32,000 bases of DNA from Halomicrobium mukohataei DSM 12286 (GTDB taxonomy: Archaea > Halobacteriota > Halobacteria > Halobacteriales > Haloarculaceae): NCBI RefSeq assembly GCF_000023965.1, contig NC_013202.1:2460001-2492000 (forward strand). Reading direction: 5' to 3'. The notes under the pieces were generated by a model. That model was not told the origin of the DNA. It saw nothing but the letters and a program-made list of their open reading frames with translations, and searched no databases. Position numbers and translations under genes: made by a program. This document shows, one piece after another, positions 3,585-28,896 of this stretch (positions within the stretch are counted from its first letter, which is position 1; the number at the start of each line of letters is the position of its first letter).

Positions 3585-3808
3585 TACACTGACCGTGGAA
3601 CCACACCATCATTAAATGTGGCATCGAGAAGCGGTTCGCGATCCGTCGATGTCGGCGCTCGATCCGTCGCTGCAGATATTTCTCCGTGAATAGATCGAAA
3701 CGAACGGTACAGCGAGGGGCGTCCACCGCCGGTCTCCGTGACAGTACTGTTTTGAGCCACTGGCTGGAACGACCACTATGTCCCCGGCCCAAACCGAGGT
3801 GGCAGCGC

Positions 3809-4765
3809 GTGAGTAAGATCGCCATCCTGCGGCAGAAAGCACACGGCCTGCCGGTCGAATCGTACGCCGACGCGGTCCGCGAGCGACTGCCCGAGGCGAC
3901 AGTTACGGTCGCCCGGACGCCCGAGCAAGAGCGAGCGGCCGTCGAGACGGCGACGGTGATCTCGGCCGGGCCGTTCGACGACGAACTGCTCGGTCACGCG
4001 AACGAGATCCAGCTGTTCGCCAGCATCTACGCCGGCTACGACCACCTGCCCCTCGACGAGTTCGCCGAGCGAGAGATCGCGTTGACGACGGCCTCGGGCG
4101 TCCACGGCCCGAACATCGCCGAGCACGTGATCGGCGCGTTTCTCGCCTTCACGCGGCGCTTCTTCGAAGCGCGTCGCCGCCAGCGAGAGCGACAGTGGCG
4201 CGCCCTCCGGTCGAGCGAACTCGCCGGTTCGACGGTGGCGGTCGTCGGACTCGGCGCTATCGGCCAGGCCATCGTCGACCGACTCGCGGGGTTCGACGTC
4301 GACACCGTCGGCGTCCGCTACAGCCCGGAGAAAGGCGGACCGACCGACGAAGTGTACGGCTTCGACGAGATCCACGAAGCTGTCACCGACGCCGAGTACG
4401 TCGCCGTCGCGTGCCCGCTGACCGACGCGACCGAGGAGCTGTTCGACGAGCAACTGTTCCGCACGATGCACCCCGAGGCGATCTTCGTCAACGTCGCCCG
4501 CGGCGGCGTCGTCGACACCGACGCGCTCACGTCGGCGATCCAGAGCAACTACATCGGCGCGGCACAGCTAGACGTGACCGACCCGGAGCCGCTGCCCGAG
4601 GACCACCCGCTGTGGGGCTTCGACAACGTCTTCGTGACGCCCCACGCCTCCGGCCACACGCCCGCGTACTACGAGCGCACGGCCGACATCCTCGCCGAGA
4701 ACGTCAGGCGCGCCGAGGAGACCGGCGAGTGGGACGGACTGGTGAATCAGGTCAACCTCGGCTGA
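3809..4765 (+). CDS. D-2-hydroxyacid dehydrogenase family, NAD-binding
   Basis: VAVVGLGAIGQAIVDRL Rossmann motif, catalytic-region motifs VNVARGG and DV...EPLP...HPLW, and TPHASG. The in-frame GTG at 3809 (VSKIAILRQ) is preferred over the Arg-rich extension from 3686. Confidence 0.75.
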   Translation: MSKIAILRQKAHGLPVESYADAVRERLPEATVTVARTPEQERAAVETATVISAGPFDDELLGHANEIQLFASIYAGYDHLPLDEFAEREIALTTASGVHGPNIAEHVIGAFLAFTRRFFEARRRQRERQWRALRSSELAGSTVAVVGLGAIGQAIVDRLAGFDVDTVGVRYSPEKGGPTDEVYGFDEIHEAVTDAEYVAVACPLTDATEELFDEQLFRTMHPEAIFVNVARGGVVDTDALTSAIQSNYIGAAQLDVTDPEPLPEDHPLWGFDNVFVTPHASGHTPAYYERTADILAENVRRAEETGEWDGLVNQVNLG

Positions 4766-6641: not shown

Positions 6642-7679
6642 CTACAGGTAGCCGTTGGCCGCCAGCAGTTCGCCGTTGAGGACGCTCGCGCCCGCAGCGC
6701 CCCGCATCGTGTTGTGAGCGAGACAGTTGAACTGAAGTCCGTCGGTCGTCTCCTGGACGCCGCCGACTGCGACGCCCATCCCGTCCTCGATGTTGCGGTC
6801 GAGGCGGGGCTGTGGCCGGTCAGGCTCGTCGAAGACCCGGATCAGCTGGTCGGGCGAGGACGGCAGGTCGATGCCCTCCGCCGACCGCAGCGCGTCCTCG
6901 GCGTCGGCGACAGTCACGTCGTCTTCGGTGTCGACCCAGACGTTCTCGAGGTGGCCGTCGAGCGTCGCGATGCGGTTACAGGAGGCCGCCACGTCCATCC
7001 CGTGGAGTTCGATCGCCGTGCCGTCGAAGCCGCCCAGCAGCTTCCGAGACTCGGTCTCCATCTTCTCCTCCTCGCCGCCGATGTGCGGGATCGCGTTGTC
7101 GATGATCTCCATCGACGTGACGCCGTCGTAGCCCGCCCCGGAGACGGCCTGTAGCGTCGAGACGCGCACGTCAGTCAGACCGAAGGCCTCGTCCAGTGCC
7201 GCCAGCGGCGGCACCATCGTGATCGTCGAGCAGTTCGGGTTCTTCAGGAGCGCACCGTCCCAGCCGCGTTCCTCGCGCTGGCGTTCGAGCACGTCGAGGT
7301 GATCGGCGTTGACCTCGGGGATCACGAGCGGCACGTCCTCGTCCATGCGGCCGTTCGAGGAGTTCGAGGAGACGACGTAGCCCGCCTCGCAGAACTCGGG
7401 TTCGACCTCGGCACCGACGCCGGAGGGGAGCGACGAGAAGATCAGGTCCACGTCGTCGGGCACGTCCTCGGGCGTGGTCGCGCCGACTTCGATCTCGGCC
7501 ACGTCCTCGGGAATCGGCGCGTCGATGCGCCACTTGGCCGCCTCTCGGTACGCCTTGCCGGCACTGGATTCGCTGGCAGTCAGTGCTGCGATCTCGAAAT
7601 CGGAGTGCGGTTCGAGCAACTGGATGAGTCGCTGACCGACCGCACCAGTGGCCCCCAGAACACCTACACGTACAGTCAT
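6642..7679 (-). CDS. asd: Aspartate-semialdehyde dehydrogenase
   Basis: MTVRVGVLGATGAVGQR N-terminus, an active-site-like NPNCSTI motif, and 345 aa, which fits archaeal Asd. Confidence 0.85.
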   Translation of the reverse strand: MTVRVGVLGATGAVGQRLIQLLEPHSDFEIAALTASESSAGKAYREAAKWRIDAPIPEDVAEIEVGATTPEDVPDDVDLIFSSLPSGVGAEVEPEFCEAGYVVSSNSSNGRMDEDVPLVIPEVNADHLDVLERQREERGWDGALLKNPNCSTITMVPPLAALDEAFGLTDVRVSTLQAVSGAGYDGVTSMEIIDNAIPHIGGEEEKMETESRKLLGGFDGTAIELHGMDVAASCNRIATLDGHLENVWVDTEDDVTVADAEDALRSAEGIDLPSSPDQLIRVFDEPDRPQPRLDRNIEDGMGVAVGGVQETTDGLQFNCLAHNTMRGAAGASVLNGELLAANGYL

Positions 7680-7752
7680 CGGTTCACACACTGCCGTGAC
7701 CGGTCAAAACAGTTTGGATAGCGAGCGACTCCCTGGGGTCGTACCGTCTCAT

Positions 7753-7829
7753 ACGGTTTCTTGTAGTTGCTTACCGATGATCGTCTACTCCGTGGCGACG
7801 ATCACCGGTAAATCGCTACAATAATCCGT
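7753..7829. repeat. Palindromic repeat element, copy 1 (33-nt arms, 11-nt loop)
   Basis: Left arm acggtttcttgtagttgcttaccgatgatcgtc, loop tactccgtggc, right arm gacgatcaccggtaaatcgctacaataatccgt. It ends 1 nt before the TGA (7831-7833) of the minus-strand gene. It matches 29036-29112. Confidence 0.85.
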
Positions 7830-7830
7830 A

Positions 7831-8280
7831 TCACTCGGTGGTCGCCCGTTCGCCGAGGTCTTCGAGCGCCCAAGTGACGATCCGTGCCTCGACCACGTCC
7901 CGTTCCTCGACGTGGTCGTCCTCGCCGTAGCGCTCGATCGTCTCTCGGGCGTCGGCGAGCATCTCGCGCTCGCGTGGCCGCTGGTCCGGTTCGTCGCGCA
8001 CGTCGTTGAGCAGCGCCTCGAAGTCCTCGCGCAGGTCGAACGAGGCGTGGGCGACGTTGCACCGCGAGAGGGGGCTCATTCCCGTTTCGAGGACGAGATC
8101 GCGAACCGTCTCCCAGTCGTCCGCACAGAAATACACCGTGACGGTGCTCTCGATGTCGCGCCAGGCGATGGGGTCGCCGTGTCGCATGAGCTGGACGGCC
8201 CGCGGGGGCAGGTCGATCCGAGTGGCCGTCTCCTCGGTCCCGCACAGACAGCACGGCTCCTCCGTGGTCCCGGTGTACAT
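7831..8280 (-). CDS. Acidic hypothetical protein with an N-terminal CCxCG motif
   Basis: Clean 149-aa acidic ORF with an ATG start and haloarchaeal composition. No recognisable domain. Confidence 0.55.
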   Translation of the reverse strand: MYTGTTEEPCCLCGTEETATRIDLPPRAVQLMRHGDPIAWRDIESTVTVYFCADDWETVRDLVLETGMSPLSRCNVAHASFDLREDFEALLNDVRDEPDQRPREREMLADARETIERYGEDDHVEERDVVEARIVTWALEDLGERATTE

Positions 8281-8340
8281 GGGAGTGTGTTGGCCCTGGG
8301 ACAGTTGAGTGCGTCGCTCGCGGCGAGGGGAGATGGAACG

Positions 8341-22368: not shown

Positions 22369-23406
22369 TTAAGCCTTGCCTGCGTAGTGGACTCGTTCGA
22401 CGTCGTCGACGCCGGCACGCCGGACGATCGCGCGGACCGGGTCCCGCGCACCCGAGAGATTGTCCGAGTCGCCGTCCAGCACCAGCAGATCGGCGTCGCG
22501 GCCCTCTGCGACGAGCCCGCAGTTCAGGCCCGCGATCTCGGCTCCGTTGACCGTCGCCATCCGGAGGACCTCGACGGCCGGAACGTCGGCGAGTTTCGCC
22601 GTCCAGGCCATCTCGCGGAACATCGACGGGCTGTTGGTCATGACGTTGTCCGTCCCCAGCGCGACCGTCGTCCGTTCGGCGAGGTCGGTGATCGGCGGAA
22701 CGCCGACGTTCGTCACGACGTTCGAGCGAGGGCAGACGACGACGGGGACTTCGCTGTCGGCCACGCGGTCGAGGTGCAACCCCTCGGCGTGGACCATGTG
22801 GACGAGAAAGTCCGGATCGAGGTCCAGCGCGGGGTTGATGTCGCTGGCGTCGACCTCCCCGGCGTGGATGCCGAACAGCTTCCCCGCCTCGGCGGTCGCG
22901 GTCCGTTCGTGGCTGAAGTCGCCGTCGGCGGCTCCGCTCGCACCGAACCCGTCGCTTCGCTCCATCGCCGCGACCGTCTCCCGCCCGAGGACGACGCTGT
23001 CGACCGGCGAGTCCGCCAGTGCCGCCTCGATCGCCGCGACGCCGTCGACCCCGCCTTCGCGGAACTCGACGAACGCGGCCGTTCCCGCTCGCTCCATGAA
23101 CGATATCGTTCGGGCCATCGCGTCGACGAGTTCCTCGCGGCTGGCCTGTCTGAGTAGCCTGTGTTTGAGGCCGTCGGGCGGCGCGACGAGTTCTTCGAGT
23201 GTGAGGCCGCCGCCGGCCTCCTTGGCGATGGAGTCGCCGATGTGGGTGTGTGCGTTGACGAACGCCGGGATGATCCACGAGGAGGGATCGACCGTCGCTT
23301 CCTCGACGGCCGCGATCTCGCCGTCCTCGATCACGACGCGGCCCTCGATCGGTTCGAACTCGCGGCCGCGGAAGATCGTGCCGGCGAGAATGGTCTGGTC
23401 GCTCAT
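22369..23406 (-). CDS. Amidohydrolase-superfamily protein (chlorohydrolase/deaminase-like)
   Basis: PAFVNAHTHIGDS is the HxH metal site, with later His and Asp positions and GTD. About 345 aa from the ATG at 23406. Confidence 0.65.
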   Translation of the reverse strand: MSDQTILAGTIFRGREFEPIEGRVVIEDGEIAAVEEATVDPSSWIIPAFVNAHTHIGDSIAKEAGGGLTLEELVAPPDGLKHRLLRQASREELVDAMARTISFMERAGTAAFVEFREGGVDGVAAIEAALADSPVDSVVLGRETVAAMERSDGFGASGAADGDFSHERTATAEAGKLFGIHAGEVDASDINPALDLDPDFLVHMVHAEGLHLDRVADSEVPVVVCPRSNVVTNVGVPPITDLAERTTVALGTDNVMTNSPSMFREMAWTAKLADVPAVEVLRMATVNGAEIAGLNCGLVAEGRDADLLVLDGDSDNLSGARDPVRAIVRRAGVDDVERVHYAGKA

Positions 23407-23427
23407 GGGCACACGTGGTGGCTCCGG

Positions 23428-24651
23428 TCAGTTGAACTCGTCGAGTGTCGCGTGGACGCCCGGCCGCGCGTCCCGGACCATCGCACCGTCGGGTTCCAGG
23501 CCGAGCACGCGGATCGCACGCTCGCCCACGCGGTCGGCGACGGCCTCGGGGGCGTAGACGCCCAGCCGCCACTGATCTCGCTGGGCCGCTCGGAGGGCCG
23601 TGACCAGCGTCGACTGCTCGCCCAGTCCGCGGACCTCGCCGTTGACGACGACCCGACTCGACGACTCGGGCATCGACGGTTCGCCGGGCACGTCCAGGAG
23701 GACGGCGTCGGCGTCGACGTTGGCCGCGTCGGCGATCGCCCGCTCCTCCTCGCGGATCTCGGCGTGGTCCATCGCCAGTAGCTCGTCGGGCACGGCCGTC
23801 ATCTCGGCCCAGATCGCGCGCTTGTACAGGCGACGCTCGGTGAGACGGTGCGCGTACCCCGCCGTCGCGTCGGTCCGACGCAGCGAGACGAGCAGGTCGC
23901 TGTCGTCCCAGCGGCGCAGTTCGGCCGGGTCGGTGTCGGTGGCTTCGAGGAGGCGCTCGGTCCCGCGCCGGAGCATCGTCTTGGCGATCCGGGCGACGTG
24001 GTGCCTGTAGACGGTTGGGTTCATCAGCGCACGGGCCAACAGCAGCGACTCCGCGGTCTGGACGTTCCCCTCGTCCAGCACGAGGTCGCCGTCCACGAAA
24101 CGCAGCTCCCGGATCAGCCGCTCGTGGTCGATCGTCCCGTAGGGGACGCCGGTGTGGTGGGCGTCCCGCACGAGATAGTCCATCCGGTCGACGTCGAGTT
24201 CGCCCGAGACGAGCTGTCCGAGTTCGCCGTCACCGGCGACGAGATCGGCGACCGCGTCGTGGTCGAGGTCGTGGTCGGCCAGCACGCGTGCCACCTCGCC
24301 GCGGTCGAGCAGATCGTGGACGTCGTCGTGGTACTTCCCCGTCTCGCGGTAGATCACCGCCTCGACGTTGTGACTGTACGGCGAGTGGCCCACGTCGTGC
24401 AACAGCGCCGCGGCGCGGACGCGTTCGGCCTTCTGTCCCTCGATCCCGAGGTGGCCAAGCGCCTCGTCGGCGAGGTGATAGACGCCGAGTGAGTGCTCGA
24501 ACCGGGTGTGGTTCGCCGAGGGGTAGACGAGCGTCACCGTCCCGAGCTGGGCGATCCGGCGGAGTCGCTGGACTGGCGGCGTGTCCAGCAGCGCCTCGGC
24601 GACGCCCTCGACAGCGATGTGGTCGTGGACGCTGTCCTTGATCGTGGTCAT
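23428..24651 (-). CDS. HD-domain phosphohydrolase, dNTP triphosphohydrolase-like (COG1078/SAMHD1-like)
   Basis: IKDSVHDHI...VQRLRRIAQLG...HTRFEHSLGVYHLA...LLHDVGHSPYSH...DRMDYLVRD is a canonical motif series. Confidence 0.8.
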   Translation of the reverse strand: MTTIKDSVHDHIAVEGVAEALLDTPPVQRLRRIAQLGTVTLVYPSANHTRFEHSLGVYHLADEALGHLGIEGQKAERVRAAALLHDVGHSPYSHNVEAVIYRETGKYHDDVHDLLDRGEVARVLADHDLDHDAVADLVAGDGELGQLVSGELDVDRMDYLVRDAHHTGVPYGTIDHERLIRELRFVDGDLVLDEGNVQTAESLLLARALMNPTVYRHHVARIAKTMLRRGTERLLEATDTDPAELRRWDDSDLLVSLRRTDATAGYAHRLTERRLYKRAIWAEMTAVPDELLAMDHAEIREEERAIADAANVDADAVLLDVPGEPSMPESSSRVVVNGEVRGLGEQSTLVTALRAAQRDQWRLGVYAPEAVADRVGERAIRVLGLEPDGAMVRDARPGVHATLDEFN

Positions 24652-24698: not shown

Positions 24699-25250
24699 TC
24701 AGGCAACCGTCGAGAGCAGCTCGTGGAGTTCGCCGCGGCGGGCGTGTCCGGCGTCGACGGCCTCACCGGGCGATCGACCCAGCTCGCCGACCGTCTCGAT
24801 GGCGTCGACGGGATCGTACCCGCGACCGTACACGAGCCAGGCGGCGAGGACGTGGCCGGTCCTGCCGATGCCGGCCAGACAGTGGACGACGACGGGCTGG
24901 TCGGCGTCGACGGACTCCTCGATGAACGGGAGAATCTCCGTTTCGAGGGTCTCGGCGTCGGCCAGGTGGTGGTCGGCGATCGGGACGTGTTCGACGTTCT
25001 CGCCGCCGAAAGCCCGGACGTACCGTCCGGTACTGGCCTCCGTCTGGTCGAGCTGGGTGCCCGAGAGCAGGCAGAGCACGCGTTCGATGCCGCGTTCCTG
25101 CATGAACGCGATCCACTCTTCGACGGCGTCGTCGGGGTCTGCAGTCGAGTGCCAGCCGGGACAGCACGCACCGTAGACGTACTCCTCGTCGGGGCCAGCG
25201 GGGGCGAACCGGTGGGCGTCGACCCGGTCCAGGCGTCGGGATTCGGACAT
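24699..25250 (-). CDS. Cys-based protein-tyrosine/dual-specificity phosphatase-like protein
   Basis: [12 protein letters not shown] is a CX5R P-loop. The 183-aa product starts at the ATG at 25250. The remainder of the 804-aa track ORF is antisense to cofD and is rejected. Confidence 0.75.
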
Positions 25251-25352
25251 TGTCTTCCCTAGAGGGTCCGCGAGACTTGAATCAATCCCCGCAGTTCTCA
25301 ATGTTGACAATCGGCGGCCGGGCCGGCCGGCGACGCCCCGTGAGAGACGATG

Positions 25353-25360
25353 TTTTATCA
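25353..25360 (+). promoter_or_regulatory. TATA box for the cofD operon
   Basis: ttttatca is centred about 27 nt upstream of the ATG at 25384. It is the only TATA-like element seen before the four overlapping genes. Confidence 0.45.
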
Positions 25361-25383
25361 ACTCCGTCCCCACTACAGGAGGT

Positions 25384-26376
25384 ATGGTGACGTTTCTCTC
25401 CGGCGGCACCGGAACGCCGAAGCTGCTCGCCGGGGCCGACGCCGTCTTCCCACCAGCGACGACGACCGTCGTCGGCAACACCGGCGACGACGTGATCCTG
25501 GGTGGGCACCTCGTCTGTCCGGACGTGGACACGGTGCTGTTCCTCGACGGCGGCGTCCTCGACCGCGAGACCTGGTGGGGTATCGATGCCGATACCGCCG
25601 AGACACACGACGAACTGCACCGACTCGCCGAGCGAGCGGGTCTCGCGGACGGGCCGCGATATCTCCCCGACTCCGCACAGACTGGCGGCCGCGAGATCGG
25701 GCGCTGGCGACGCTTCTCCGGCGTCGCAGAGTTCATGCACATCGGCGACCGCGACCGGGCGGTCCACGTGACCCGGACGAGCCTGCTCGACGAGGGCCAC
25801 TCGCTGACGGAGGTGACGGCGACGCTCGCCGACGCGTTCGGGCTCGACCGCACGCTCGTGCCGATGAGCGACGATCCGGTGGCGACGCTGATCCACACGC
25901 CCGACGGCGTCCAGCACTTCCAGGAGTGGTGGGTCGCCAACGGCGGCGACCCGACGATCGAGCGCGTCGAGTTCCGGGGAAGCGAAGACGCGACGACCAC
26001 ACCGGCCGTCGACGCGGCGCTTTCCGAGCCGGTCGTGATCGGTCCGTCGAACCCGATCACGAGTATCGGCCCGATGCGTGCCGTCTCGGGGTTCGAGTCG
26101 GCGCTGGAACGCGCGCCGGTCGTGGCCGTCTCGCCGTTCGTCGGCGAGGAGGTGTTCTCCGGTCCCGCCGGGACGCTCATGACCGCGACGGGGCACGAGG
26201 CCAGTACGGCCGGTGTCGCGGACGCGTACTCGTTCGCGGACGCGTTCGTCCTCGACGAGGACGATCCGACGGCGCTCGATCGGCCGACCGTCAGAACGGA
26301 CACGCGAATCGACGACGACGCGGACGCAGAACGCGTCGCCCGCGCGGTCGACGAGGCACTGGAGGTGGTCGCGTGA
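25384..26376 (+). CDS. cofD: 2-phospho-L-lactate transferase (LPPG:FO transferase)
   Basis: [16 protein letters not shown]-terminus, VVGNTGDD, and a length of 330 aa are typical of CofD. Confidence 0.8.
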
Positions 26377-27143
26377 GCCCGGATCGAGGTGGGGCGCTGT
26401 TCGATCCCCCCGTCGCGCTGGCGAGTCTCAGCGGCCGCTCGGACGCCGAGTGGGCCGAAGGTGGCGGCCCCTTCGCCGGCTGTGCCTTCCTCGGTGGGAT
26501 CGCGCTGGACGACGCCACCCGGCGCGCGGCCCGGTCGATGGTCGAACGGGACCGCACGGAGTTCCTGCCGTCCGACCCGCTGGCGTTCGTCCAGCGACAG
26601 CTGCGAGCGATGGAGGAACTGCCGATCAGAGCCGGCGTCAACGTTCGCAGCGCCGCGCTCGCGCCGATCGAGGACGCCGCCGGCCGCTGTCAGGACCACG
26701 ACGCGATCCTGGAGATCAACGCCCACTGTCGCCAAGCGGAGATGTGTGAGGCCGGGGCCGGGCAAGCGCTGCTCGACAGGCCCGAGAAGCTCTGTCGGCA
26801 GGTCGAGGCGGCGACCGCGACCGGTGCGACCGTCAGCGTGAAAGTCCGCGCGGAAGTCGACGGCGTGGAGCTGCCGACGCTCGCCGCGAAGCTGGAGCGG
26901 GCCGGCGCGGACGCGGTCCACGTCGACGCGATGGACTCCGAGCACGTCGTCGGCGAGATCGCGGACGCGACGGGCCTGTTCGTGATCGCGAACAACGAGG
27001 TCAGAGACGCCGAGAGCGCCCACGAGTACTTCCGATACGGTGCCGACGCGGTCAGCGTCGGTCGGGCGAGCGACGACCCGGACGTGCTGGCGGCGGTCCG
27101 GCGCGCGACCCACGAGTGGTTCCAGACGGGGGCGAAGCCGTGA
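26373..27143 (+). CDS. DUS-like (dihydrouridine-synthase-like) TIM-barrel protein, function unknown
   Basis: The GTG at 26373 overlaps the cofD stop as [33 protein letters not shown]...VSVKVR parallels the DUS motif D.N.GCP......G.G.ALL..P......V.VK.R, with the Cys retained. Confidence 0.55.
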
Positions 27144-27973
27144 GAACGACCGCCCAGAACGCCGAGCTGGCGCTGTTGCTCGAAGTCGCCGGGACGCCGA
27201 AGCCCGGCAACGTCGACCGGGAACACGAGTACGAGGACCTCCGGTTCGAGCACTTCCTCGCCGGTGCGGTCGGTGCCCGACCCGGCTTCGAACGGGCAGC
27301 CGCGGGCGACCCGATCGGTGACGCGTTCGAGCACGCAGTCGAGGGGATGGCCCAGCAGCGCGGGGGCAACACGCAGTTCGGCGCGCTTCTCGTGGTGACG
27401 CCGCTTGTCGCGACGGCGGCCAGCGGTGCGCTCTCGCGAGAGCACGCGAGCGCGGTCGTCGCCGAGACGACCGTCGACGACGCGGCGGGCTTCTACCGCG
27501 CGTTCGAACACGTCGACGTGGCCGTCGACGACCCGCCGGACGGGATGGAACCGCTGGACGTTCGCCGCGGAGCCGAGGTCGTCCCGACGCTGCGCGACCG
27601 CGGGCTGACGCTGGCGGACGTGATGGAACGGAGCGCCGACGCCGACGACGTGGCCGCCGAGTGGACCGACGGCTTCGGACGCGTCTTCGACGCGGCCGAC
27701 CGTATCGAGAGCGCGTCTGGGCCGGTGGCGGACCGCGCGGCGACGGTCTTCCTCGAACTGCTGGCGGCTCGACCCGACACCTTCGTGAGCACGCGACAAG
27801 ACCGAGAGACGGCCCTGGAGGTCCAGCGACGAGCGCAGGCCGTTCTCGACGGCGAGGACGACGTGGACGAGTTCGCAGCGGATCTCGTCGAACGAGACAT
27901 CAACCCCGGAACGACCGCAGACCTGATCGCCGGAGGGCTGTTCGTCGCGCTGGAGCGGGGGCTGTCGGTGTGA
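27140..27973 (+). CDS. CitG-like triphosphoribosyl-dephospho-CoA synthase homologue
   Basis: The GTG at 27140 overlaps the upstream stop as GTGA. LLLEVAGTPKPGNVDR matches the CitG/MdcB E...TPKPGLVD motif. An ATG at 27116 is an alternative start. Confidence 0.65.
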   Translation: MRTTAQNAELALLLEVAGTPKPGNVDREHEYEDLRFEHFLAGAVGARPGFERAAAGDPIGDAFEHAVEGMAQQRGGNTQFGALLVVTPLVATAASGALSREHASAVVAETTVDDAAGFYRAFEHVDVAVDDPPDGMEPLDVRRGAEVVPTLRDRGLTLADVMERSADADDVAAEWTDGFGRVFDAADRIESASGPVADRAATVFLELLAARPDTFVSTRQDRETALEVQRRAQAVLDGEDDVDEFAADLVERDINPGTTADLIAGGLFVALERGLSV

Positions 27974-28548
27974 CGGCGTCCTGGCCCGTCGACCTGGACG
28001 GCGTGACCGAGTCGGTCGTGACGACGCTGGGGCCCAACGATCGCTGGAACGTCGCCGCGCTGGGGTTGCACGCACCGGCCAGCGACGATGCCGTCTTCGC
28101 GCGCACGTGGGGTCGAACCCGGACCTGGCGGAACTTCCGCGAGCGCGGCGAAGGATACGTCCAGTTCACGGTCGACCCCGTCGACTTCGCCGAGGCCGCG
28201 ATGACGGTCCGAGAGGAGACAGCGCCGGTGCTTTCGAGTGCGAACGCCTGGGCCCGCGTCGCCGTCGAAGAGCGAGCGAGTGGCACCGACGGGGGCACCG
28301 AGTGGGTCGAGTGGACGCTCGCGCCGATCGAGTCGGCGGTCGAGCACCGCACCGTTCCGACGACGAACCGCGCCTACTACGCCGTCGTCGAGGCGACCGT
28401 CGCGGCCTCTCGGCTCGACGTGCCCGAGTACGACACCCAGACGCTCCGCGATCGGATCGACTACTTCGAGGCCGTCGTCGAGCGCTGTGGCGGCGAGCGC
28501 GAGCGCGAGGCCTTCGCCGTCGTCCGAGAGCGCGTCGACGGCGAATGA
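27970..28548 (+). CDS. DUF447-like protein (FMN-binding split-barrel-like)
   Basis: The GTG at 27970 overlaps the upstream stop as GTGA. The 192-aa protein has ESVVTTLGPNDRWNVAALGL near its N-terminus, as in split-barrel flavin-binding folds. The family call is from recollection only. Confidence 0.45.
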   Translation: MTASWPVDLDGVTESVVTTLGPNDRWNVAALGLHAPASDDAVFARTWGRTRTWRNFRERGEGYVQFTVDPVDFAEAAMTVREETAPVLSSANAWARVAVEERASGTDGGTEWVEWTLAPIESAVEHRTVPTTNRAYYAVVEATVAASRLDVPEYDTQTLRDRIDYFEAVVERCGGEREREAFAVVRERVDGE

Positions 28549-28701: not shown

Positions 28702-28896
28702 ATGGCAATCAAGCCCGCCTACGTCAAGAAGACAGGGACGCTCCTGATGGAACGGTATCCAGACGCTTTCGGTGCGGACTTCGAGCACAACAAAGACATC
28801 GTCACCGAGCTCACCAACATCGAGTCCAAGGGCGTCCGTAACCGCATCGCCGGCTACATCGCACGCAAGCAGTCCGCCCAGACCGCCGAAGCGTAA
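28702..28896 (+). CDS. rps17e: 30S ribosomal protein S17e
   Basis: [23 protein letters not shown]...NRIAGYI is a typical eS17. 64 aa. Confidence 0.9.

What the first reader, a model, noticed from the sequence alone, without database searches (positions are those of the whole stretch)
25251..28548. cofD heads a four-gene operon with three GTGA overlaps and three uncharacterised partners
Seen in the sequence:
- One TATA box lies 27 nt before the cofD ATG.
- Three consecutive GTGA start/stop overlaps follow (26373-26376, 27140-27143, 27970-27973), so the four genes form one transcription and translation unit.
- Motifs identify the products as CofD, a DUS-like barrel that keeps the catalytic-position Cys in NAHCRQ where DUS enzymes have N.GCP, a CitG-like protein with TPKPGNVD, and a roughly 190-aa split-barrel-like protein.

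Established knowledge:
- CofD transfers 2-phospholactate from LPPG to the ribityl tail of FO in F420 biosynthesis.
- CitG makes 2'-(5''-triphosphoribosyl)-3'-dephospho-CoA.
- CitG-like (COG1767) and DUF447 (COG2457) genes belong to the archaeal-type gene sets genetically tied to tetrahydromethanopterin-linked C1 metabolism. As far as I recall, their reactions have never been assigned.

Inference: haloarchaea are not methanogens, so tight coupling of these genes to cofD suggests an undescribed tailoring route. It could ribosyl-phosphorylate or reduce a deazaflavin or a pterin-type cofactor. This is the best candidate for a novel system in the window.
Basis: partly seen in the sequence, partly recalled or inferred. 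Interest (0 to 1): 0.72.

Follow-up and report, generated by a model that had tools for sequence, protein, structure and literature searches.

The report
cofD operon with three orphan enzymes
A conserved four-gene operon in salt-loving archaea joins the known coenzyme F420 enzyme CofD to three uncharacterised enzymes, and one of them is a good candidate for the long-missing step that supplies the lactyl group of F420 in archaea.

Summary
A TATA-like TTTTAT lies 26-31 nt before the cofD ATG. Four + strand genes are joined by three GTGA stop/start overlaps. HMMs confirm CofD, an MJ0144-family Dus-like FMN barrel, a CitG-family protein and DUF447.

The array is conserved in Halobacteria. It is complete in 52 of 80 metagenome loci, and cofD sits directly before the Dus-like gene in 73 of 74 informative loci.

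Comparison outside Halobacteria splits it into two modules.
- Module 1 is cofD plus the Dus-like gene. In two Asgard genomes the Dus-like gene lies between cofD and cofC, and in one of them cofG-cofH follow. It is a single TIM barrel without the tRNA-binding domain. I infer it reduces the enolpyruvyl unit to lactyl, the unassigned archaeal F420 step.
- Module 2 is the CitG-like gene plus DUF447. These match Orf7 and Orf19 of bacterial tetrahydromethanopterin islands, which lack the Dus-like gene.

Methanogens carry Dus-like-CitG-DUF447 without cofD, so the assignment of the Dus-like enzyme is not settled. Nothing here is biochemically shown. I found no published function for the three partners.

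The parts
25353..25358 (+). TATA-like box (TTTTAT) of the operon promoter, 26-31 nt before the cofD ATG; implies a leaderless or near-leaderless mRNA
   Evidence: Sequence. Only 2 TTTTAT on the + strand of the 32-kb window. Promoter function is inferred, not shown.
25384..26376 (+). cofD, 2-phospho-L-lactate transferase (LPPG:FO), 330 aa
   Evidence: TIGR01819 equivalog 368.9 bits (cut-off 257.45) and PF01933. N-terminal GGTGTPK motif read.
26373..27143 (+). MJ0144-family Dus-like FMN TIM-barrel protein, 256 aa. Candidate FMNH2-dependent ene-reductase of the F420 lactyl unit
   Evidence: PF01207 43.9 bits and TIGR00736 123.6 bits, below its cut-off. All 40 relatives tested hit TIGR00736. Model pLDDT 95.9, a single barrel with no helical tRNA-binding domain. 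Nearest folds are Dus, DHODH, OYE and FabK. G21, G41, E114, H118, G130 and K157 are invariant and C119, R120, Q121, R159, H183, D185, N207, N208, S228 and R231 are at least 90% conserved in the 40-sequence alignment. cofD lies upstream in 73 of 74 loci. The order cofD-X-cofC is found in Asgard genomes.
27140..27973 (+). CitG-family protein, 277 aa (alternative start 27116). Candidate ATP-dependent triphosphoribosyl transferase acting on an acceptor other than dephospho-CoA
   Evidence: PF01874 236 bits over the full length, but only 35-38 bits against the CitG/MdcB equivalogs (cut-offs 272-282). PDB relative 3H9P, with no function assigned. 28% identical to the CitG-like gene (orf7 position) of a Phyllobacterium H4MPT island.
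27970..28548 (+). DUF447 protein, 192 aa. FMN-binding split barrel plus a C-terminal helical domain. Candidate flavin reductase or FMN-dependent oxidoreductase
   Evidence: PF04289 and PF20766. Model pLDDT 93.2. Nearest structures are 2IML, 2NR4 and 2PTF, all deposited with FMN bound, followed by NAD(P)H:flavin reductases. Homologous to DUF447 of the bacterial H4MPT island (hhalign 98.7%).
24699..25250 (-). Divergently transcribed PTP/dual-specificity phosphatase, 183 aa. A possible but unproven accessory gene
   Evidence: Pfam DSPc and PTP families. Divergent and within 600 nt of cofD in 20 of 63 haloarchaeal loci.

Best explanation
This is a C1/redox-cofactor biosynthesis operon built from two modules and read as one leaderless, translationally coupled transcript.

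Module 1 is cofD plus the Dus-like gene. CofD transfers the 2-phospholactyl group from LPPG to FO to give F420-0; this is established for the family. The Dus-like protein is not an RNA enzyme. It is a stand-alone FMN TIM barrel of the Dus/DHODH/ene-reductase type that keeps the catalytic Cys. I infer that it uses FMNH2 to reduce the enolpyruvyl C=C of a PEP-derived unit to the lactyl group. The substrate could be PEP (giving 2-phospho-L-lactate), EPPG (giving LPPG) or dehydro-F420-0 (giving F420-0). In that role it would replace the nitroreductase-fold FbiB C-terminal domain/FbiE of bacteria, and it would fill the unassigned source of 2-phospholactate ('CofB') in archaea.

Module 2 is the CitG-like gene plus DUF447. 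These are the archaeal counterparts of Orf7 and Orf19 of bacterial tetrahydromethanopterin islands. I infer that the CitG-like enzyme transfers 5-triphospho-alpha-D-ribosyl from ATP, releasing adenine, to a hydroxyl acceptor other than dephospho-CoA. The most likely acceptor is the ribitol 5-OH of an arylamine-pterin derived from ribofuranosylaminobenzene phosphate. I infer that DUF447 is an FMN-dependent reductase or flavin reductase that supplies reduced flavin to the pterin branch and possibly to the Dus-like enzyme.

The modules would be co-expressed because F420H2 is the reductant for the Mer/Mtd-type enzymes that act on the pterin carrier.

Shown: gene order, its conservation, family membership, folds, and FMN binding by crystallised homologues. 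Inferred: every substrate and reaction of the three partners.

Sub-claim probabilities:
- Operon and CofD function: about 0.9.
- Dus-like enzyme acts in F420 side-chain formation: about 0.45.
- CitG-like and DUF447 act on a methanopterin-type molecule: about 0.5.
For: 1. Conservation in Halobacteria.
- The full array is present in 5 of 8 genome loci and in 52 of 80 metagenome loci.
- Overlapping stops and starts are conserved.

2. The cofD-Dus pair is the tightest link.
- cofD precedes the Dus-like gene in 73 of 74 informative loci.
- Eight loci keep cofD-Dus but have unrelated genes downstream.
- In Natrinema three genes are inserted between Dus and CitG.

3. An independent second association with cof genes.
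- A Heimdallarchaeota genome has cofD-X-cofC-cofG-cofH. CofD, CofG and CofH pass their equivalog cut-offs, and CofC scores 95.5 bits against a cut-off of 105.
- X is the only non-canonical gene in that FO/F420-0 operon.
- A second Asgard genome has cofD-X-cofC in different flanks.
- In an NJ tree the Asgard and haloarchaeal X clades are far apart.

4. Fold of X.
- It is a single TIM barrel (pLDDT 95.9) whose nearest structures are Dus, DHODH, OYE and FabK, all FMN enzymes acting on C=C next to a carbonyl.
- Cys119 aligns with the Dus catalytic Cys.
- K157 is invariant and R61, R92, R120, R159 and R231 are at least 90% conserved, which suits an anionic substrate.

5. There is a real gap to fill.
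- The source of 2-phospholactate in archaea is unidentified (PMC8498797; supplement of PMC8305020).
- The earlier search for an archaeal dehydro-F420 reductase looked only near cofE and only for NTR-fold genes (PMC6450877).
- Archaeal CofC/CofD pairs prefer 2-PL (PMC8764529).

6. Module 2.
- CitG-DUF447 stand alone in Archaeoglobus.
- Both families occur in a Phyllobacterium H4MPT island, where DUF447 overlaps the pterin-binding DUF6513 gene next to a flavoprotein gene. The Dus-like family is absent there.
- Halobellus limi has mer-DUF447-mptG-like-metE beside npdG. Its DUF447 is 54% identical to the window protein.
- DUF447 crystal structures carry FMN, and the next structural neighbours are flavin reductases.
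Against: - The Dus-like gene heads Dus-CitG-DUF447 triplets with no cof gene in Methanoplanus, Methanocella and GCA_002011165.2. In the last of these the triplet lies near a pterin-binding DHPS-like gene. The haloarchaeal clade is sister to these in the tree. The Dus-like enzyme could therefore belong to the pterin branch.
- In three Archaeoglobi-type loci it follows a DapF-like gene, with neither a cof nor a CitG gene nearby.
- From memory, not checked here: labelling work by Graupner and White showed direct GTP-dependent phosphorylation of lactate in methanogen extracts. That favours a kinase over a reductase as the source of 2-PL.
- I did not see the family in named Thaumarchaeota or Actinobacteria, which make F420. 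Only 120 hits per search were visible.
- Haloarchaea are reported to contain folates and no methanopterin (White 1988, as cited in PMC8305020). This leaves module 2 without a known product in this organism.
- No experiment supports any of the three proposed reactions.
Confidence: 0.42

Rival explanations
1. All three partners belong to one pathway that builds the side chain of a methanopterin-type carrier. The Dus-like enzyme reduces the ribofuranosyl-aminobenzene moiety to the ribityl form. The CitG-like enzyme adds the alpha-ribosyl 5-(tri)phosphate. DUF447 supplies reduced flavin or reduces the dihydropterin. cofD is only a neighbour, co-regulated because F420 and the pterin work together.
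For: The Dus-CitG-DUF447 triplet is conserved in three methanogen-type lineages without cofD. In one of them it lies beside a pterin-binding DHPS-like gene and an ATP-grasp gene. The haloarchaeal Dus-like clade is sister to those. CitG-like and DUF447 sit in bacterial H4MPT islands. Halobellus has mer-DUF447-mptG-like-metE. From memory, the ribofuranosyl-to-ribityl step of methanopterin synthesis has no assigned enzyme.
Against: A lone methanopterin gene conserved between cofD and cofC, inside an FO/F420-0 operon, in two Asgard genomes is hard to explain. When haloarchaeal loci lose CitG-DUF447, the Dus-like gene stays with cofD. Bacterial H4MPT islands, which need the same reduction, lack the family.
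Confidence: 0.25
2. All four genes serve F420 only. The trio makes or activates the phospholactyl unit, or builds a modified F420 tail; this is the first reader's 'tailored deazaflavin'. One version has the CitG-like enzyme ribosyl-phosphorylating the FO ribityl 5'-OH or acting as the missing lactate-activating enzyme, while the Dus-like enzyme and DUF447 form a two-component reductase.
For: The four genes are translationally coupled and the array is common in Halobacteria. The Dus-like gene links to cofD and cofC. DUF447 looks like the flavin-reductase half of a two-component system. FbiB needed an added flavin reductase in vitro (PMC6450877). Haloarchaea have F420 but reportedly no methanopterin.
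Against: CitG-like and DUF447 occur in H4MPT islands on plasmids of alphaproteobacteria, beside fae, mch, mptG and a pterin-binding gene. No cof genes appear in those islands. The Asgard F420 operons carry neither CitG nor DUF447. From memory of Lin and White 1986, cited, the F420 characterised from halobacteria was ordinary F420. A CitG-type glycosyl transfer to the FO 5'-OH would compete with CofD for the same hydroxyl.
Confidence: 0.12
3. The adjacency has no shared biochemical meaning. The Dus-like protein is an RNA dihydrouridine synthase, the CitG-like protein makes the CoA-derived prosthetic group of an acyl-carrier enzyme, and DUF447 is an unrelated flavoprotein. They are kept together only by inherited synteny.
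For: Database names such as 'tRNA-dihydrouridine synthase', 'dihydropyrimidine dehydrogenase' and 'triphosphoribosyl-dephospho-CoA synthase'. The wider neighbourhood (HD protein, rpS17e, asd) is also syntenic in haloarchaea.
Against: The Dus-like protein lacks the tRNA-binding helical domain and scores 30 bits against Dus equivalog cut-offs near 293. The CitG-like protein scores 35-38 bits against cut-offs of 272-282, and no citrate lyase or malonate decarboxylase genes are nearby. The same partners recur in different combinations across phyla, with overlapping stop and start codons.
Confidence: 0.04

Closest known systems
FbiB C-terminal domain / FbiE (dehydro-F420-0 reductase of mycobacteria and Thermomicrobium)
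   Same: Proposed chemistry: FMNH2-dependent reduction of the enolpyruvyl group to the lactyl group of F420. Both are genomically coupled to core F420 genes (PMC6450877, PMC8498797).
   Different: The fold is unrelated. FbiB-C/FbiE is a nitroreductase fold, while this protein is a Dus/DHODH-type TIM barrel. Here the partner gene is cofD or cofC, not cofE. The activity is untested.
tRNA dihydrouridine synthases (Dus) and class 1 dihydroorotate dehydrogenases
   Same: FMN-binding (beta/alpha)8 barrel. A Cys at the catalytic position. K-x-R, H-x-D/G and N-N/G motifs at equivalent strands.
   Different: No C-terminal helical tRNA-binding domain. NAHCRQ replaces N-x-GCP. Scores are far below the Dus and PyrD equivalog cut-offs. 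It is a small, almost purely archaeal family, with 222 clusters at 50% identity.
CitG / MdcB (2'-(5''-triphosphoribosyl)-3'-dephospho-CoA synthase)
   Same: Full-length Pfam CitG match and the N-terminal TPKPG-x-VD motif. ATP-dependent triphosphoribosyl transfer is therefore the default chemistry.
   Different: It fails both equivalog models. There is no citrate lyase or malonate decarboxylase, ACP or CitX/MdcG gene nearby. Its orthologue-level relatives sit in H4MPT islands.
Orf7 and Orf19 of the 'archaeal-like' H4MPT/methylofuran islands of methylotrophic bacteria
   Same: Homologous proteins: CitG-like at 28% identity and DUF447 at hhalign probability 98.7%. Gene orders match those published for Methylosinus and listed for Methylomonas.
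   Different: In bacteria the two genes lie apart, next to orf5/fae and orf20/afpA respectively. In archaea they are adjacent and overlapping. The host here is reported to lack methanopterin. I found no assigned reaction for either.
NAD(P)H:flavin reductases of two-component systems (HpaC, SMOB, PheA2, CtcQ, FerA)
   Same: The split beta-barrel flavin-binding core of DUF447.
   Different: TM-scores are only about 0.4. DUF447 has an extra C-terminal three-helix domain (PF20766). No pyridine-nucleotide use has been shown.

Membership tests
CofD (2-phospho-L-lactate transferase, TIGR01819 / PF01933) | Full-length match above the curated equivalog cut-off | tested here: met
   368.9 bits against a cut-off of 257.45, covering profile positions 1-299 of 301. 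PF01933 at 140.6 bits.
CofD (2-phospho-L-lactate transferase, TIGR01819 / PF01933) | Transfers 2-phospholactyl from LPPG to FO | not testable with these tools
   Needs an enzyme assay. It is inferred from equivalog membership and from F420 being reported in halobacteria (PMC8305020).
tRNA dihydrouridine synthase (Dus) | FMN-binding TIM barrel with a catalytic Cys | tested here: met
   The model is a (beta/alpha)8 barrel with pLDDT 95.9. The top PDB matches are DusB and DusC. Cys119 aligns with the DusC Cys in N-C-G-C-P.
tRNA dihydrouridine synthase (Dus) | C-terminal helical tRNA-binding domain and an equivalog-level score | tested here: not met
   The protein is 256 aa with only one helix after the barrel. 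The Pfam match covers profile positions 65-229 of 311. DusB scores 30.5 bits against a cut-off of 293, and DusC scores 24.9 against 395.
MJ0144 family (TIGR00736, function unknown) | Score above the curated cut-off, with the family-specific conserved core | tested here: inconclusive
   123.6 bits is below the cut-off of 218.7, but it is the best family match. All 40 aligned relatives hit it, the best at 3e-80. E-x-N-A-H-C-R-Q, K157, R159 and H183 are shared. The haloarchaeal clade nests beside methanogen members. I treat it as a divergent member.
CitG / MdcB triphosphoribosyl-dephospho-CoA synthase | Pfam CitG domain over the full length | tested here: met
   PF01874 at 236.2 bits, residues 5-270, covering profile positions 1-284 of 284.
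CitG / MdcB triphosphoribosyl-dephospho-CoA synthase | Equivalog-level score and association with citrate lyase or malonate decarboxylase ACP genes | tested here: not met
   MdcB scores 38.4 bits against a cut-off of 282, and CitG scores 35.4 against 272. No cit or mdc genes appear in 20 kb around the gene, nor in any related locus examined.
DUF447 (PF04289 + PF20766) | Both domains above their gathering scores; FMN-binding split barrel | tested here: met
   86.4 and 68.8 bits. The model reaches TM 0.80 to 2IML, and 2IML, 2NR4 and 2PTF were all deposited with FMN bound. FMN binding by this particular protein is inferred.
FbiE / FbiB C-terminal dehydro-F420-0 reductase | Nitroreductase (PF00881) fold | tested here: not met
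   None of the four proteins has an NTR match. The candidate is a TIM barrel. The claim is 'may work like', not 'is a member'.
Bacterial H4MPT-island genes orf7 / orf19 | Homology to the island genes and the same neighbours (mch, orf5, fae; orf20, afpA) | tested here: inconclusive
   Homology is met. The neighbours are not the same in the window, which has cofD, Dus-like and rpS17e. In Halobellus, DUF447 lies next to mer and an mptG-like gene. Orthology was not tested with a tree.

The most novel reading that the evidence does not exclude
Two linked claims.

(a) The MJ0144-family barrel is the missing archaeal enzyme that makes the lactyl phosphate unit of F420 by reducing a PEP-derived enolpyruvyl group. 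This would replace the never-found 'lactate kinase CofB' and would be non-homologous to bacterial FbiE.

(b) Haloarchaea, held to use only folate, still synthesise a methanopterin-like carrier derived from ribofuranosylaminobenzene phosphate. They would use mptG-like, CitG-like and DUF447 genes to do so, and the carrier would work with F420-dependent Mer to supply methyl groups to methionine synthase.
Probability: 0.22. Interest if true: 0.85.

Novelty: new variant of a known kind. Interest (0 to 1): 0.62.

Why it matters
How archaea obtain the 2-phospholactyl unit of F420 has been open since the pathway was drawn. No lactate kinase was ever found. The bacterial solution (PEP plus an NTR-fold reductase) has no archaeal counterpart near cofE (PMC6450877, PMC8498797, supplement of PMC8305020). 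A flavin barrel encoded next to cofD in Halobacteria, and between cofD and cofC in Asgard archaea, gives a concrete candidate. It can be tested in a genetically tractable host such as Haloferax volcanii.

The CitG-like and DUF447 pair offers candidates for unassigned steps of methanopterin side-chain synthesis in methanogens and methylotrophs. Its presence in haloarchaea, in one case in an operon with mer, an mptG-like gene and metE, questions the view that haloarchaea have no methanopterin-specific enzymes.

There are practical consequences. Several public records name these genes as tRNA-dihydrouridine synthase, dihydropyrimidine dehydrogenase, triphosphoribosyl-dephospho-CoA synthase or hydrolase, and these names are probably wrong. 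A complete archaeal F420 gene set would also help heterologous F420 production.

Tried and rejected
- The single genome-contig scan, run with the DUF447 protein alone, returned only 8 loci because exact 8-mer patterns were used. The scan was then spent, so no broad named-genome profile could be made.
- The metagenome scan with the Dus-like alignment returned only the 80 best matches, all haloarchaeal. It was useful for counting but not for distant taxa.
- The DUF447 protein search showed only haloarchaeal hits in its visible top 120.
- Full-text searches for DUF447, COG1767, COG2457, MJ0144, MTH_863, orf7 and orf19 found no functional assignment. Word-start matching of 'DUF447' mostly hit DUF4470-type names. 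One 2026 paper links DUF447 to cannulae without evidence, and I disregard it.
- Key subscription papers were not held: Kalyuzhnaya 2005, the DmrX paper and the de Crecy-Lagard papers.
- I first assumed that Orf5 or Orf1 was the CitG-like gene. This was rejected: Orf5 is the glutamate ligase MyfB and Orf1 is MfnD.
- I tested whether the HisA/HisF-like TIM barrel of the Phyllobacterium island is a bacterial Dus-like counterpart. It is not: hhalign gave 59% probability over the phosphate-binding strands only, and there is no NAHCRQ motif.
- The bacterial Dus-like clade (Poribacteria-type) has an uninformative context.
- Fusion partners of the Dus-like domain gave no decisive clue. They are a GGACT domain, the methanogenesis-marker-9 domain, and unassigned extensions of about 120 aa.
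- The sigma-70 promoter/terminator scanner was not used, because it does not model archaeal promoters.

Full report
**What is in the sequence**

The window comes from a Halomicrobium chromosome. An identical protein and gene order occur in CP045142.1, and the closest species hit is H. katesii at 97-98%. Between 25384 and 28548 there are four + strand genes:
- cofD, 25384-26376
- a Dus-like gene, 26373-27143
- a CitG-like gene, 27140-27973
- a DUF447 gene, 27970-28548

GTGA stop/start overlaps lie at 26373, 27140 and 27970. TTTTAT lies at 25353-25358, 26-31 nt before the cofD ATG. In this 66% G+C window that hexamer occurs only twice on the + strand. The position fits a leaderless archaeal mRNA.

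A PTP-type phosphatase gene runs divergently upstream (24699-25250). rpS17e follows about 150 nt downstream.

The frames of genes 2 and 4 are open far upstream, which is a high-G+C artefact. The start codons therefore rest on homologue N-termini, on the NCBI gene calls, and on conservation of overlapping stop/start codons. Across 88 haloarchaeal loci these overlaps are available at 58 of 79, 53 of 74 and 50 of 65 junctions. Such overlaps are ordinary operon architecture, not a special feature.

**Family calls**

- CofD passes its equivalog cut-off (369 bits against 257).
- Gene 2 matches Pfam Dus weakly. Its best match is the MJ0144 family (TIGR00736, 124 bits, below the cut-off of 219).
- Gene 3 matches Pfam CitG over its full length (236 bits) but scores only 35-38 bits against the true CitG/MdcB equivalogs.
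- Gene 4 has both DUF447 domains.

Solved relatives are all structural-genomics entries without assigned function: 3H9P for the CitG-like protein, and 2IML, 2PTF, 3B5M and 2NR4 for DUF447.

**The Dus-like protein is not an RNA enzyme**

It belongs to a small family with 222 clusters at 50% identity in 1.8 billion representatives. All 40 tested members hit TIGR00736. The core residues (G21, G41, E114, N116, H118, C119, R120, Q121, G130, K157, R159, H183, D185, N207, N208, S228, R231) are at least 80% conserved across three alignments; G21, G41, E114, H118, G130 and K157 are invariant in all three.

The AlphaFold model (pLDDT 95.9) is one (beta/alpha)8 barrel of 256 residues. It has no helical tRNA-binding domain. 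Its nearest solved folds are Dus, dihydroorotate dehydrogenases, an old yellow enzyme and FabK. All of these are FMN enzymes that add or remove hydride at a C=C next to a carbonyl. Cys119 aligns with the catalytic Cys of DusC.

**DUF447**

The model (pLDDT 93.2) superposes on 2IML, 2NR4 and 2PTF, whose titles state bound FMN. The next matches are NAD(P)H:flavin reductases of two-component systems.

**Conservation in Halobacteria**

- Among 8 genome loci, 5 have cofD-Dus-CitG-DUF447, one is cut by a contig end, one lacks cofD and one lacks Dus.
- Among 80 hypersaline metagenome loci anchored on the Dus-like gene, cofD lies directly upstream in 73 of 74 informative cases.
- 52 of the 80 loci carry the complete array.
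- 8 keep cofD-Dus but have unrelated genes downstream, such as an HD protein, an amidohydrolase, asd and a GATase.
- In Natrinema three genes are inserted between Dus and CitG.

The tightest pair is therefore cofD-Dus. CitG-DUF447 is a second, separable pair.

**Context outside Halobacteria**

- *Asgard archaea.* A Heimdallarchaeota genome has cofD-X-cofC-cofG-cofH. CofD, CofG and CofH pass their equivalog cut-offs and CofC falls just below its own. X scores 172 bits on TIGR00736. A second Asgard genome has cofD-X-cofC in different surroundings. In the first operon X is the only gene without an assigned role in making F420-0.
- *Methanogen-type lineages.* Methanoplanus, Methanocella and GCA_002011165.2 have X (with an extension of about 120 residues, annotated in one case as a methanogenesis-marker-9 domain) followed by CitG and DUF447, with no cof gene. 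In the last genome a pterin-binding DHPS-like gene lies about 700 nt further on.
- *Archaeoglobi.* Archaeoglobus veneficus has an NAD-binding epimerase-like gene followed by CitG and DUF447. In three Archaeoglobi-type loci X follows a DapF-like gene.
- *Phylogeny.* An NJ tree places the haloarchaeal X clade beside the methanogen clade and far from the Asgard clade. The cofD association therefore arose at least twice.
- *Bacteria.* On a Phyllobacterium plasmid the H4MPT island reads pcbD, mptG, mtdB, ATP-grasp, mch, RimK ligase, CitG-like, fae..., DUF447, DUF6513 (pterin-binding), flavoprotein. This matches the published orders mch-orf5-orf7-fae and orf19-orf20-afpA and the Methylomonas gene list. 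CitG-like is therefore Orf7 and DUF447 is Orf19. The island has no Dus-like gene. Its HisA/HisF-like barrel is unrelated, and no bacterial plasmid carrying the CitG-like gene holds a Dus-like gene.
- *Halobellus limi.* A plasmid carries npdG divergent from mer-DUF447-mptG-like-metE-metE. That DUF447 is 54% identical to the window protein.

**What the literature says**

- The source of 2-phospho-L-lactate in archaea is an unidentified 'lactate kinase CofB' (PMC8498797).
- Mycobacteria use PEP and reduce dehydro-F420-0 with the NTR-fold C-terminal domain of FbiB. The search for an archaeal equivalent looked only for PF00881 genes near cofE (PMC6450877).
- Archaeal CofC/CofD pairs prefer 2-PL (PMC8764529).
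- Pfeiffer and Dyall-Smith state that no route to 2-phospholactate is known. They also state that haloarchaea lack methanopterin and its specific enzymes, and that the RFAP-synthase-like HVO_2628 has no known role (PMC8305020 and its supplement).
- I found no paper assigning a reaction to Orf7, Orf19 or the MJ0144 family. Orf5, OrfY, Orf9, Orf21, Orf22 and Orf1 are assigned to methylofuran/methanofuran synthesis.

**Interpretation**

I read the operon as two modules.

*Module 1.* CofD attaches the phospholactyl group. The Dus-like barrel, by fold an FMN ene-reductase, most likely reduces the enolpyruvyl group of PEP, EPPG or dehydro-F420-0 to the lactyl group. This would fill the archaeal gap with a protein unrelated to FbiE. 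The proposed chemistry is hydride transfer from FMNH2 N5 to C3 and protonation at C2 by Cys119. That step is inference by analogy with Dus, DHODH, MurB and FbiB.

*Module 2.* The CitG-like enzyme keeps the family's N-terminal TPKPG-x-VD motif. It probably still transfers 5-triphosphoribosyl from ATP, but to an acceptor other than dephospho-CoA. The alpha-ribosyl-5-phosphate on the ribitol of methanopterin is the obvious product, given the bacterial islands. DUF447 is an FMN protein of the flavin-reductase type. It could reduce flavin for the pterin branch and perhaps for the Dus-like enzyme.

Co-transcription with cofD makes sense if the pterin carrier works with F420-dependent Mer/Mtd, as the Halobellus operon suggests.

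**Weak points**

- The methanogen triplets tie the Dus-like gene to CitG-DUF447, so it may belong to the pterin branch (rival 1).
- The Archaeoglobi context fits neither reading.
- Older labelling work, recalled but not checked here, favours a lactate kinase.
- Haloarchaea are reported to contain only folates.
- I could not run a genome-wide phylogenetic profile, which would be the decisive computation.

**Verdict**

The feature is a real, conserved cofactor operon whose three partners are unassigned in the literature I could search. It makes two open questions directly testable in a tractable organism. I rate it as a new variant of a known kind, with interest 0.62.

Noticed in passing
window 24699-25250 (-): A PTP/dual-specificity phosphatase gene is transcribed divergently from cofD, sharing the 133-nt intergenic region. 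It is in the same position in 20 of 63 haloarchaeal loci. A phosphatase step is needed in methanopterin side-chain synthesis, but no link was tested.
   Followed up: partly
window 22369-24651 (-); L062 9112-11571; L081 4640-7015: An HD-domain protein (HD + HD_assoc_2) and an amidohydrolase or adenosine-deaminase-like protein stay next to cofD-Dus even in loci where the order is rearranged and CitG-DUF447 are missing. The role is unknown.
   Followed up: partly
L101 (Halobellus limi plasmid NZ_CP031312.1) 4167-9803: npdG lies divergent from an operon of mer, DUF447, an RFAP-synthase-family (mptG-like) gene and two metE-type methionine synthase genes. This suggests a Mer-to-methionine methyl route using an RFAP-derived carrier in a haloarchaeon.
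   Followed up: partly
L094 6169-7738; L104 6093-7765; L105 6163-7747: In three Archaeoglobi-type loci the MJ0144-family gene directly follows, and in two of them overlaps, a DapF-like (DAP_epimerase/PhzF-like) gene. This is unexplained.
   Followed up: no
P0445 (Methanoplanus), P0418, P0443, P0282: Methanogen members of the Dus-like family carry an extra region of about 120 residues. In one case NCBI names it a methanogenesis-marker-9 domain. One member is fused to a gamma-glutamyl cyclotransferase-like (GGACT) domain.
   Followed up: partly
L103 (Phyllobacterium plasmid) 7576-8283 (-): A HisA/HisF-related TIM-barrel gene of unknown role sits inside the bacterial H4MPT island between fae and the MfnF-like gene. 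It is not related to the Dus-like family.
   Followed up: yes
window 24699-27113 (-) and 25350-27143 (+): Very long spurious ORFs of 804 aa and 597 aa overlap the real genes in other frames or on the other strand. This is typical of 66% G+C DNA. GC3 separates real frames from false ones.
   Followed up: yes
window 28702-28896 (+); L102 5672-5863: rpS17e follows the DUF447 gene both here and in Natrinema. asd and a D-2-hydroxyacid dehydrogenase are also shared neighbours (window 6642-7691 and 3686-4765). This is probably plain synteny.
   Followed up: no
L096 10896-11485: The Heimdallarchaeota F420 operon (cofD-X-cofC-cofG-cofH) is followed by a short nucleotidyltransferase of 196 aa, resembling the N-terminal half of mannose-1-phosphate guanylyltransferase. 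Whether it takes part in guanylyl activation is unknown.
   Followed up: no
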